A stretch of DNA of 64,000 nucleotides from NCBI GenBank assembly GCA_020343495.1, contig CP070797.1:1510-65509 (forward strand), given 5' to 3'. The stretch is from Candidatus Omnitrophota bacterium (GTDB lineage Bacteria; Omnitrophota; Gorgyraeia; Duberdicusellales; 4484-171). Numbering within the stretch: position 1 is the stretch's first letter; every line of letters starts with the position of its first letter. The notes beneath the pieces were generated by a model. That model saw only the letters and a list, made by a program, of their open reading frames with translations, was not told where the DNA came from and did no database searches. Below, piece after piece: positions 24,503 through 24,799 of this stretch. The position numbers were made by a program, and so were the translations under genes.

Positions 24503-24799
24503 TTAGTTCACGAACCAAAACCGCGTATTGCGTTTTGAATCAAACATCCAGGAACCAGAACTAAAAACCCAATGCCGGGAATCAAAAATCTTACATTCGG
24601 TATCTAATATATCTGACCGGGGATTTAAAATCCAACACCCCGACTCCGACATTGACGAAAGAGGATCAACAATCCAGCAGCCGGGATCAAAAATCCAGTA
24701 TCTAGCAATAGATATAGAAGATTTATACCTTCGCAGAATACTATCCCACGAAGGGAAATGGAAAAGCTTCAAAATTACAAACATTTTAATTCCTGACAT
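24503..24799 (-). CDS. Candidate 98-aa Trp/Cys-containing heptad-repeat protein. Its stop lies 6 nt upstream of the giant-gene start (translational coupling).
   Basis: - The ATG at 24797-24799 follows AAAAAGGAGAAAAAT (GGAG at 24806-24809, 6-nt spacer).
- It lies about 30 nt downstream of a TGnTATAAT promoter.
- Eight consecutive heptads: YWIFDPG CWIVDPL SSMSESG CWILNPR SDILDTE CKIFDSR HWVFSSG SWMFDSK.
- Substitutions between copies are conservative at protein level (I/V/M, F/V/L, D/N/S, P/S).
- The stop TAA (24503-24505) sits just before the giant-gene SD/start.

Caveat: both strands are open here, and the repeat can also be read as a DNA palindrome. Confidence 0.5.
   Translation of the reverse strand: MSGIKMFVILKLFHFPSWDSILRRYKSSISIARYWIFDPGCWIVDPLSSMSESGCWILNPRSDILDTECKIFDSRHWVFSSGSWMFDSKRNTRFWFVN

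What the first reader, a model, noticed from the sequence alone, without database searches (positions are those of the whole stretch)
24503..24799. Candidate 98-aa Trp-rich heptad-repeat protein translationally coupled to the giant gene
**Seen in the sequence**
- A coherent gene signal: TGgTATAAT promoter (24835-24843), AAGGAG with a 6-nt spacer, then ATG (24799).
- The stop TAA (24503-24505) lies 6 nt before the giant-gene GTG/ATG cluster.
- The product carries eight consecutive heptads of the form x-W-[IVM]-[FVL]-[DNS]-[PS]-x.
- Cys occurs exactly every 14 residues (C41, C55, C69), and there are 7 Trp in 98 aa.
- Copy-to-copy DNA differences produce conservative amino-acid changes rather than preserving the DNA palindrome. 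HWVFSS, for example, breaks both palindrome arms but keeps the hydrophobic pattern. This favours coding.
- I know of no described family with this repeat.

**Inference**
- It could be a dedicated chaperone, pilot or usher for the giant protein.
- It could be a coupling uORF that sets giant-gene translation.
- It could be a repeat-containing peptide precursor.
Basis: partly seen in the sequence, partly recalled or inferred. Interest (0 to 1): 0.75.

Follow-up and report, generated by a model that had tools for sequence, protein, structure and literature searches.

The report
Orphan small gene from 7-base repeat
The 98-codon reading frame ahead of the giant gene is very probably a real small protein gene, found so far in only two Omnitrophota species, whose odd seven-residue repeat is what remains of a 7-base DNA repeat; its function is unknown and its position next to the giant gene is not conserved.

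Summary
The ORF (24503-24799, minus strand), its TGGTATAAT promoter, its Shine-Dalgarno (SD) ribosome-binding site and the 6-nt gap to the giant gene's GTG are all as described. Only 5 of the 8 heptads fit the stated motif.

It is very probably a real gene. One ortholog exists, in a second Omnitrophota MAG (66% aa identity). It keeps the start, stop position, frame, SD and promoter while synonymous sites are saturated. dN/dS is about 0.2. The two sequences differ at 33 nonsynonymous codons, against 60.9 ± 3.2 expected under a neutral null (0 of 5000 simulations). Only 0.12% of neutral descendants keep the frame open.

The heptads have a simple origin. Codons about 31-89 are a decayed array of 25 heptanucleotide units, about (TTCTGGA)n, in a single register. 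(TCCTGGA)n translates to SWILDPG in all three frames. The "palindrome" is a by-product of the W-I and D-P codons.

No true homolog turned up among 1.8 billion protein representatives; the other hits were translated microsatellites.

The coupling to the giant gene is not conserved. In the ortholog four genes (3.6 kb) lie between the ORF and the DUF2341 gene. What is conserved is its place as first cistron behind a promoter element (TGTGCA-N8-RAGTAG) next to the two-component system. Four relatives carry that element without the ORF.

Function is unknown. The chaperone and peptide-precursor (RiPP) ideas have no support.

The parts
24874..24893 (-). Conserved promoter-upstream element TGTGCA-N8-AAGTAG. 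It continues as GTTTACGGATTG to about 24862 and ends 33 nt upstream of the -10 hexamer. It is a candidate site for the adjacent LuxR/NarL-type response regulator.
   Evidence: One exact match in the window and one per related locus, always between the response regulator and the DUF2341 operon (window, L001-L007, L008, L011, L014; variant in L013). That it binds the regulator is inference.
24835..24843 (-). Extended -10 promoter TGGTATAAT.
   Evidence: Read directly. Identical in L001 and TGGTATTAT in L008 at the same distance from the upstream element. The L001 copy passes the consensus promoter scan with TG. The window copy fails the scan's -35 criterion.
24806..24811 (-). Shine-Dalgarno sequence AAGGAG, 6 nt before the ATG.
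   Evidence: The ortholog has AAGGGAG at the equivalent place.
24503..24799 (-). 98-aa ORF, equal to NCBI hypothetical protein JSV34_00020 from a Candidatus Omnitrophota MAG. A real, lineage-restricted small protein gene.
   Evidence: dN/dS is 0.18-0.20 in this frame and 0.53-2.2 in the other five frames. Neutral simulation gives p < 2e-4.
24710..24799 (-). Non-repeat N-terminal part (codons 1-30). Residues 5-19 (KMFVILKLFHFPSWD) are invariant between the two species.
   Evidence: dN/dS 0.19 for codons 1-33. The 7-nt register score is at background here.
24533..24707 (-). Decayed heptanucleotide array: 25 units in one register, consensus about T[TC]CTGGA. It encodes the Trp heptads (codons about 31-89).
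   Evidence: T occupies unit position 1 in 23 of the 27 units counted over the whole repeat half (p = 5e-7). The repeat half is 55% identical to a perfect (TTCTGGA)n array, against at most 43% for codon shuffles. (TCCTGGA)n translates to SWILDPG.
24503..24505 (-). TAA stop of the ORF. It lies in the same reading frame as the giant gene and two codons before its GTG.
   Evidence: and frame arithmetic. The ortholog stops at the aligned position with TGA.
24485..24500 (-). The giant gene's own SD-like AGGTGAT and its cluster of start codons (GTG 24496, ATG 24493, ATG 24487).
   Evidence: Which start codon is used was not determined.
2162..24496 (-). 7444-aa DUF2341 giant gene, the second cistron of the unit in this window.

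Best explanation
The ORF is a genuine small protein gene (98 aa, basic, Trp-rich) found so far in only two Omnitrophota species.

It is the first cistron behind a conserved promoter that lies beside a HisKA_3 histidine kinase and a LuxR-type response regulator. In related genomes that promoter directly drives a DUF2341 or giant surface-protein gene.

Its central 59 codons descend from an expanded heptanucleotide microsatellite, about (TTCTGGA)n. Because 7 is not a multiple of 3, such an array reads as one heptapeptide (S/F-W-I-L-D-P/S-G) in all three frames and has no stops. That gives a ready-made open frame, and the GGAT....ATCC pseudo-palindrome comes with it. The array has since decayed. 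Since the two species split, it has evolved under purifying selection on the amino-acid sequence.

Shown here: coding status, selection, promoter conservation and the 7-nt architecture.

Inferred: the product acts in trans as a small accessory or regulatory protein co-expressed with the regulator-controlled surface-protein operon, for example as a feedback connector to the two-component system. The tight spacing to the giant gene in this window is ordinary operon packing, which may add some translational coupling but is not the gene's reason for existing.
For: Ortholog comparison:
- P0002 (99 aa, 66% identity) keeps the ATG, SD, stop position and frame, with one 3-nt indel.
- Differences by codon position are 30/20/48 (chi-square p = 0.002).
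- dN/dS is 0.18-0.20 overall, 0.19 for codons 1-33 and 0.07 for codons 34-60.
- dS is 1.2-2.3 in the ORF, similar to the neighbouring kinase (2.3) and regulator (1.2) genes.
- Placing the 98 nucleotide differences at random gives 60.9 ± 3.2 nonsynonymous codons, against 33 observed (0 of 5000 simulations). Only 0.12% of simulated descendants keep an open frame.
- The other five frames contain stops or have higher dN/dS, and the antisense ORF is absent in L001.

7-nt architecture:
- Self-identity at lag 7 has z = 4.9 in the window and 3.7 in L001.
- There are 25 units in one register between 24707 and 24533.
- The best-fitting perfect array is (TTCTGGA)n.
- The profile's only database 'hits' are translations of 7-nt microsatellites such as GSWILDP.

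Promoter and distribution:
- The promoter element is present once per locus in the window and in five related lineages (an exact match in four, a variant in L013).
- The ORF is absent from L008, L011, L013 and L014, which carry the element, and from L010 and L012.
Against: - Only two species carry the ORF, so the selection test rests on a single pairwise comparison.
- There is no transcript, ribosome or peptide evidence.
- The codon-usage score is positive but weaker than for neighbouring genes: 0.13 and 0.22 against 0.23-0.46.
- The AlphaFold model is uninformative (pLDDT 34).
- No outgroup shows an intact microsatellite or a syntenic non-coding precursor, so gain cannot be separated from loss in L008. 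Kinase and regulator identities give conflicting branching orders.
- The trans-acting function is pure inference.
- The last 38 codons are poorly conserved (dN 0.58).
Confidence: 0.6

Rival explanations
1. It is a cis-acting leader cistron. Its translation matters mainly because terminating ribosomes open or reload the start region of the next gene (translational coupling) or shield the start of a 22-kb mRNA from premature termination. The peptide itself would be secondary, or would act only as a nascent chain.
For: - It is the first cistron after the promoter in both species.
- In the window the stop lies 6-15 nt before the giant gene's start codons.
- A 10-bp stem, ACUAAGAAAA/UUUUCUUAGU (24507-24498 with 24426-24417), includes the ORF's stop codon and brackets the giant gene's SD and start. 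A terminating ribosome would melt it.
Against: - The amino-acid sequence is under purifying selection over at least the first 60 codons (dN/dS 0.07-0.19), and the C-terminal part nearest the stop is the least conserved. This is the opposite of arrest peptides.
- The downstream gene and the spacing differ in the ortholog (41 nt, then a 91-aa gene).
- The predicted fold is no more stable than shuffled sequence (z = -1.1 and -1.6).
- The giant gene has its own SD.
Confidence: 0.2
2. It is not a gene. The 21-bp-phased GGAT-N5-ATCC palindromes would be an operator array for the adjacent LuxR-type response regulator, or a structured 5' leader RNA, and the open frame would be incidental.
For: - Motif copies sit at exact multiples of 21 bp, which is two helical turns.
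- The region lies between a regulator-associated promoter and the regulated gene.
- An array of 7-nt repeats is stop-free in all frames by construction.
Against: - The palindrome arms are only 4 nt long and follow automatically from TGG-AT (W-I) and GAT-CC (D-P).
- The arms are broken in the ortholog where the amino acid is conservatively replaced: copy 2 is TGGATT in the window and TGGGTG in L001.
- Substitutions are codon-periodic and mostly synonymous.
- With 33% of sites changed, a neutral stop-free frame survives in only 0.12% of simulations.
- The motif is absent elsewhere in the window. Rfam finds nothing, and the folds are not significant.
Confidence: 0.07
3. It is a precursor of a ribosomally made, modified peptide (RiPP): a conserved N-terminal leader followed by repeated Trp/Cys-containing cores.
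For: - The N-terminus is conserved and the repeated C-terminal half is more variable.
- The product is rich in Trp, Cys and Ser.
Against: - No modifying-enzyme gene is shared by the two loci. The window neighbours are a PpiC-type isomerase, the response regulator, the histidine kinase, TPR proteins, secretins and DUF2341 genes.
- The four genes that follow the ORF in L001 have no homolog in the window.
- Two of the three Cys are not conserved.
Confidence: 0.04
4. It is a dedicated chaperone, pilot or usher for the giant DUF2341 protein.
For: - It lies immediately upstream of the giant gene in the window.
- It is probably in the same transcription unit as a DUF2341 gene in both species.
Against: - It is not adjacent to the DUF2341 gene in the ortholog.
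- It is absent from four related loci in which the same promoter element precedes a DUF2341 gene (L008, L011, L013, L014), including one whose next gene is a 13,163-aa giant.
- It has no signal peptide or transmembrane segment, although the giant protein has an N-terminal signal-like sequence.
- No structural model is available.
Confidence: 0.09

Closest known systems
Ohno-type coding sequences built from oligonucleotide repeats whose length is not a multiple of three (Ohno 1983-84 'repeats of base oligomers'; recalled from my own knowledge. only confirms that the phrase is cited in the literature.)
   Same: A 7-nt unit repeated in tandem gives a 21-nt, 7-aa periodic reading frame that is open in all three frames. 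The heptad consensus here, S/C-W-I-L/F-D-P-G, equals the translation of (TCCTGGA)n.
   Different: Here the array sits in the 5' leader of a bacterial operon. It is already decayed (55% identity to the ideal array), is flanked by non-repeat N- and C-termini, and shows measurable purifying selection between two species.
Bacterial lineage-restricted (ORFan) small genes and de novo gene candidates (review PMC12315717)
   Same: It has no homolog outside a very narrow clade, and it is short, basic and weakly gene-like in codon usage. It sits at a syntenic position where relatives have no gene.
   Different: A concrete mutational origin (microsatellite expansion) can be read from the sequence. Selection is demonstrable. 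However, the non-coding ancestor has not been observed.
Small connector or feedback proteins of two-component systems (MgrB, PmrD, SafA; recalled from my own knowledge)
   Same: A small gene placed first behind a promoter that is probably controlled by the neighbouring response regulator.
   Different: There is no sequence or structural similarity and no transmembrane segment. Neither regulation by the regulator nor any interaction has been tested.
Regulatory leader peptides and coupling uORFs (tnaC, secM, ermCL; recalled from my own knowledge)
   Same: An upstream cistron that ends a few nucleotides before the next start codon. It is rich in Trp, Asp and Pro.
   Different: It is 98 aa rather than 8-170 aa with a C-terminal arrest motif. 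Conservation is highest at the N-terminus and middle and lowest next to the stop. The downstream partner is not conserved.
The conserved secretion-system locus upstream of Omnitrophota giant genes (West-Roberts et al., bioRxiv 10.1101/2023.11.21.568195)
   Same: The window shows the described context: two secretins, TPR proteins, a Rotamase_2 isomerase and then the giant gene.
   Different: Term searches of that paper found no 'small protein', 'two-component' or 'response regulator'. The small ORF, the adjacent two-component system and the conserved promoter element seen here therefore appear not to be described there; I did not read the whole paper.

Membership tests
Protein-coding gene under purifying selection | Frame, start and stop are conserved in orthologs despite saturated synonymous divergence | tested here: met
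   There is one 3-nt indel, the stop is at the aligned position, and 0.12% of neutral simulations keep the frame open.
Protein-coding gene under purifying selection | dN/dS well below 1 in this frame only | tested here: met
   0.18-0.20 in this frame against 0.53-2.2 in the other five frames. 33 nonsynonymous codons against 60.9 ± 3.2 under the neutral null. This rests on a single species pair.
Protein-coding gene under purifying selection | Evidence of transcription and translation | not testable with these tools
   No expression data are available. Support is limited to the conserved promoter and SD.
Any described protein family (Pfam, NCBIfam, PDB) | A significant profile match | tested here: not met
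   No hits in Pfam, NCBIfam or PDB sequences. The exhaustive HMMER search returned only the protein itself (its ortholog falls in the same cluster) plus translated microsatellites.
Heptanucleotide-repeat-derived ORF (Ohno type) | A DNA periodicity of 7 nt within the 21-nt peptide period, in one continuous register | tested here: met
   Lag-7 z = 4.9 in the window and 3.7 in L001. Register 0 scores 150 against 79-107 for the other registers, with 25 units between 24707 and 24533.
Heptanucleotide-repeat-derived ORF (Ohno type) | The peptide consensus equals the translation of the unit | tested here: met
   (TCCTGGA)n gives SWILDPG and (TTCTGGA)n gives FWILDSG. Heptads match SWILDPG at 2-5 of 7 positions.
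De novo gene (strict sense) | A syntenic non-coding precursor identified in outgroups | tested here: not met
   L008, L011, L013 and L014 share the promoter but have no sequence alignable to the ORF. Gain and loss cannot be told apart.
Response-regulator operator array | Palindromic half-sites conserved at the DNA level irrespective of codon position | tested here: not met
   The arms change where the amino acids are conservatively replaced, and third positions vary most.
Known structured RNA (Rfam) | A covariance-model match or a significantly stable fold | tested here: not met
   Rfam's best match has E = 8.5. Fold z-scores are -1.1 and -1.6.
RiPP precursor | A cognate modifying enzyme encoded nearby and co-conserved | tested here: not met
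   no candidate gene is shared by the two loci within the DNA available.
Translationally coupled leader cistron of the giant gene | The stop-start junction with the same downstream gene is conserved in orthologs | tested here: not met
   The ortholog has 41 nt and then a 91-aa gene, and the DUF2341 gene lies 3.6 kb downstream.
Translationally coupled leader cistron of the giant gene | Downstream translation depends on translation of the upstream ORF | not testable with these tools
   This needs reporter assays.

The most novel reading that the evidence does not exclude
This may be a traceable case of gene birth in a bacterium. A heptanucleotide microsatellite would have expanded in the 5' leader of a regulator-controlled giant-gene operon. 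That would create an instant stop-free frame behind an existing promoter and ribosome-binding site, and the resulting Trp-heptad protein would then have been kept by selection as a new functional component of the giant-protein or two-component system.
Probability: 0.35. Interest if true: 0.6.

Novelty: new member of a known kind. Interest (0 to 1): 0.4.

Why it matters
How bacteria acquire lineage-restricted (ORFan) genes is still unsettled (review PMC12315717), and clear native examples with a readable mutational mechanism are scarce. In this case three things can be read from sequence alone: the mechanism (a 7-nt repeat giving a 7-aa repeat), the pre-existing expression signals (a promoter conserved across at least six lineages), and later purifying selection.

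For Omnitrophota giant-gene biology the finding has two practical consequences. First, the small ORF is not a general accessory of giant genes. Second, a conserved promoter element next to a dedicated two-component system is a better handle on how these genes are regulated.

If the gene turns out not to be translated, the finding reduces to a decayed microsatellite in a leader and is ordinary.

Tried and rejected
- Search of species-representative genomes with the giant protein's N-terminus: no relatives found.
- Metagenome-contig search with the ORF alignment and genome search with the kinase alignment: both returned only the contig already known.
- Exhaustive profile search gave 100 hits at E ≤ 1e-3. 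On inspection, all hits I read other than the query's own cluster are translations of 7-nt microsatellites (SILDSRF, CWMLDAG, GSWILDP) and were rejected as homologs.
- AlphaFold2 on the 2-sequence alignment gave pLDDT 34, so no fold search was attempted.
- Rfam, Pfam, NCBIfam and PDB sequence searches found nothing.
- RNA folds of the leader and of the stop/start junction are not significantly stable.
- The antisense 117-aa ORF (24528-24881, plus strand) shares third codon positions with the sense frame. It has dN/dS 0.53 and an internal stop in each species, and no ORF of 25 aa or more is listed there in L001. It was rejected.
- The ORF's N-terminus resembles the N-terminal extension of the L014 DUF2341 protein (IKM..ILLFFHF). 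BLASTP gives E = 3.4, which is not significant, so the 'remnant of the old gene start' idea was dropped.
- The first attempt to search for the promoter element used the wrong spacing and found nothing. It was corrected.

Full report
**1. What is in the sequence**

On the minus strand an ORF runs from the ATG at 24799 to the TAA at 24505-24503 and encodes 98 aa.
- TGGTATAAT lies at 24843-24835.
- AAGGAG lies at 24811-24806, with a 6-nt spacer before the ATG.
- Six nucleotides separate the TAA from the GTG (24496) that opens the 7444-aa DUF2341 giant ORF. Further ATGs follow at 24493 and 24487.

The product has 7 Trp, and Cys at residues 41, 55 and 69. Laid out in 21-nt rows, five of the eight 'consecutive heptads' fit the stated motif: YWIFDPG, CWIVDPL, CWILNPR, HWVFSSG and SWMFDSK. 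Two lack the Trp and one does not fit.

**2. Where the window comes from**

The protein is identical to 'hypothetical protein JSV34_00020' of a Candidatus Omnitrophota MAG on a 1.5-Mb contig.

On the minus strand, reading in the direction of transcription, the genes are: two secretins, two TPR proteins, a HisKA_3 histidine kinase, a LuxR/GerE-type response regulator, a PpiC/Rotamase_2 isomerase, the ORF, and then the giant DUF2341 gene.

The secretins and the isomerase fit the secretion-system and isomerase locus already described upstream of Omnitrophota giant genes (bioRxiv 10.1101/2023.11.21.568195). Term searches of that paper found no mention of a small protein, a two-component system or a response regulator.

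**3. Is it coding?**

A word-indexed search of 5.8 billion proteins found exactly one other cluster, P0002 (99 aa, 66% identity), from a second Omnitrophota species recovered in five assemblies.

The DNA alignment shows that the following are conserved:
- the ATG and the SD;
- the TGGTATAAT promoter;
- the stop position (TAA in the window, TGA in the ortholog);
- the frame, with a single 3-nt indel.

All of this holds while one third of the nucleotides differ.

The differences are distributed as expected for a coding frame:
- They fall 30/20/48 on codon positions 1/2/3 (chi-square p = 0.002).
- Nei-Gojobori dN/dS is 0.18-0.20 in this frame, against 0.53-2.2 in the other five frames, which also contain stops.
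- By segment, dN/dS is 0.19 for codons 1-33 and 0.07 for codons 34-60. Codons 61-98 are much less conserved (dN 0.58).
- The neighbouring kinase and regulator genes give 0.06 and 0.09, with equally saturated dS.
- Redistributing the 98 observed substitutions at random gives 60.9 ± 3.2 nonsynonymous codons, against 33 observed (0 of 5000 simulations). An open frame survives in only 0.12% of simulations.

The antisense 117-aa ORF (24528-24881, plus strand) shares third codon positions with the sense frame, so it had to be excluded explicitly. It has an internal stop in each species, and no ORF of 25 aa or more is listed there in the ortholog.

I conclude that the frame has been translated and selected since the two species diverged. 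The caveat is that this rests on one species pair and on no expression data.

**4. Where the heptads come from**

An exhaustive HMMER profile search of 1.84 billion cluster representatives gave 100 'hits'. Apart from the query's own cluster, every hit I read is a run of perfect heptapeptides such as SILDSRF, CWMLDAG or GSWILDP. These are what 7-nt tandem repeats produce when translated.

That prompted a test for 7-nt periodicity in the ORF itself:
- Self-identity at lag 7 is 0.42 in the window (z = 4.9 against codon shuffles) and 0.40 in the ortholog (z = 3.7). Further peaks appear at lags 14, 21, 28 and 42.
- Cut into 7-mers, the repeat half has T at unit position 1 in 23 of 27 units (p = 5e-7), G at position 6 in 17 units and A at position 7 in 17 units.
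- The best-fitting perfect array is (TTCTGGA)n at 55% identity. Codon shuffles reach at most 43%.
- The signal occupies a single register from 24707 to 24533 (25 units) and drops to background on both sides.
- (TCCTGGA)n translates as SWILDPG in all three frames, and as SRIQDPG on the antisense strand. The first is the consensus of the observed heptads. The second explains why the antisense strand is also largely open.

The 'palindrome' GGAT-N5-ATCC is simply TGG-AT(W-I) followed by G-AT-CC(D-P). In the ortholog its arms break wherever the residue is conservatively replaced, for example ATT to GTG (Ile to Val) in copy 2.

Period-7 arrays also occur in neighbouring intergenic DNA, at 2123-2160 and 24897-24931 and in L008 directly after the regulator gene. 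Heptanucleotide slippage therefore appears to recur in this lineage.

**5. What is and is not conserved around it**

In the ortholog's locus the order is secretin, TPR, TPR, kinase, regulator, ORF99, then genes of 91, 177, 352 and 498 aa, and only then the DUF2341 gene. The four intervening genes have no homolog in the window. The ORF is therefore not a fixed neighbour of the giant gene.

What is fixed is the promoter:
- The element TGTGCA-N8-RAGTAG, usually continuing as TTTTGCGGATTG, ends 33 nt upstream of an extended -10 in the window and L001.
- It occurs exactly once in the window (24874-24893) and once in each related locus that carries it: L001-type, L008, L011 and L014, with a variant in L013.
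- It always lies between the regulator gene and a DUF2341 gene.

In L008 (kinase 73% identical) the same promoter runs straight into a 995-aa DUF2341 gene after about 25 nt. L011, L013 and L014 have leaders of about 100-220 nt, and L010 and L012 have a different gene there. None encodes anything similar to the ORF.

The ORF is thus an insertion into the leader of a conserved transcription unit that is probably controlled by the regulator. It is present only in the window and L001 lineages. Kinase and regulator identities give conflicting branching orders among the window, L001 and L008, so gain in a common ancestor and loss in L008 cannot be distinguished.

**6. How it most likely works**

*Shown here:*
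- It is a selected coding frame.
- It sits first behind a conserved promoter.
- It is built largely from a decayed 7-nt array.

*Inferred:*
- Selection acts on the amino-acid sequence, and most strongly on residues 5-60 rather than next to the stop. The product therefore more likely acts as a protein in trans than as a mere coupling device or arrest peptide.
- It is basic (pI 9.0), has no signal peptide or transmembrane segment, and could not be modelled (pLDDT 34).
- Its conserved partners are the promoter and the two-component system, not the giant gene. My preferred guess is therefore a small accessory or feedback protein of that regulatory circuit. This is untested.
- Translational coupling to the giant gene is possible in this window. 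The gap is 6-15 nt, and a 10-bp stem that includes the ORF's stop codon brackets the giant gene's SD and start. However, the fold is not significant (z = -1.1), the giant gene has its own SD-like AGGTGAT, and the arrangement is not conserved.
- The ORF and the giant gene happen to share a reading frame, separated by TAA-GAA-AAG. This has a one-in-three chance of occurring, and I give it no weight.

**7. Comparison with what is known, and verdict**

No described protein or RNA family matches.

Conceptually this is an Ohno-type repeat-derived coding sequence and a bacterial ORFan. It fails the strict de novo test because no non-coding precursor was found. It is not an operator array, a known RNA, a RiPP precursor with a visible enzyme, or a conserved giant-gene chaperone.

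I rate it a new member of a known kind. The giant-gene interpretation does not hold, and the function remains open.

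Noticed in passing
window 24862-24893 (-); L001 5915-5934; L008 3287-3306; L011 8694-8713; L014 8099-8118; variant in L013 at about 4590: A conserved promoter-upstream element, TGTGCA-N8-RAGTAG(TTTTGCGGATTG), ends 33 nt before an extended -10. 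It occurs once per locus, always between the LuxR-type response regulator gene and a DUF2341 or giant gene. It contains GCAA...TTGCGG half-site-like motifs and is a candidate binding site for the adjacent regulator.
   Followed up: partly
window 24528-24881 (+): A 117-aa antisense ORF overlaps the whole small gene and its promoter, and its third codon positions coincide with those of the sense frame. It is a by-product of the 7-nt array (the antisense reads SRIQDPG-like). No ORF of 25 aa or more is listed there in the ortholog.
   Followed up: yes
window 2123-2160 and 24897-24931; L008 about 3235-3275: Other period-7 tandem arrays lie in intergenic DNA flanking the giant gene. (CCACTTA)5.4 sits between the giant gene's stop and the next DUF2341 gene. 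(TACTTTA)4.9 sits just upstream of the promoter element. (TATCCGC)3(TNTCAGC)2TGGATCC follows the regulator gene's stop in L008.
   Followed up: no
window 443-2035 (-): A second DUF2341 gene lies directly downstream of the giant gene. The N-terminus of the L001 giant protein matches it (37% identity) about as well as it matches the window's giant protein (39%).
   Followed up: no
L011 8140-8560; L013 3400-3660; L014 7105-7992; window 25065-25961: The space around the regulator gene and the promoter appears to be an insertion hot spot. It holds a GIY-YIG gene plus a 28-nt tandem repeat (about 4 copies) in L011, a 23S_rRNA_IVP-like gene in L013, a Y1 (IS200/IS605-type) transposase in L014, and the PpiC/Rotamase_2 gene in the window.
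   Followed up: no
window 24965-25034 (-): An 11-bp perfect inverted repeat (ATTATTGAGGT / ACCTCAATAAT with a 34-nt loop) is followed by CTCCTCTTTTTTG just after the PpiC stop. It may be a terminator separating PpiC from the small-ORF/giant-gene unit. The consensus terminator scan did not call it, because the loop is too long.
   Followed up: partly
window 24417-24426 and 24498-24507: A perfect 10-bp complementarity, ACUAAGAAAA/UUUUCUUAGU, encloses the giant gene's SD and start codons and includes the small ORF's stop codon. It appears in both the MFE and the centroid fold, but overall stability is not above that of shuffled sequence (z = -1.1).
   Followed up: partly
L014 8200-8382: The DUF2341 ORF in L014 can be extended 61 codons upstream of the called start. 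The extension, MRRLIKMLKNPILLFFHFF...RVCWIFILC, superficially resembles the small protein's N-terminus and its first WIF heptad. BLASTP gives E = 3.4, which is not significant.
   Followed up: yes
window 24485-24496 (-): The giant gene's start is ambiguous (GTG 24496, ATG 24493, ATG 24487). The SD-like AGGTGAT at about 24500-24494 is best spaced for the ATG at 24487 (MRKFIKTL...). The small ORF is in the same reading frame as the giant gene, separated from it by a single TAA.
   Followed up: partly
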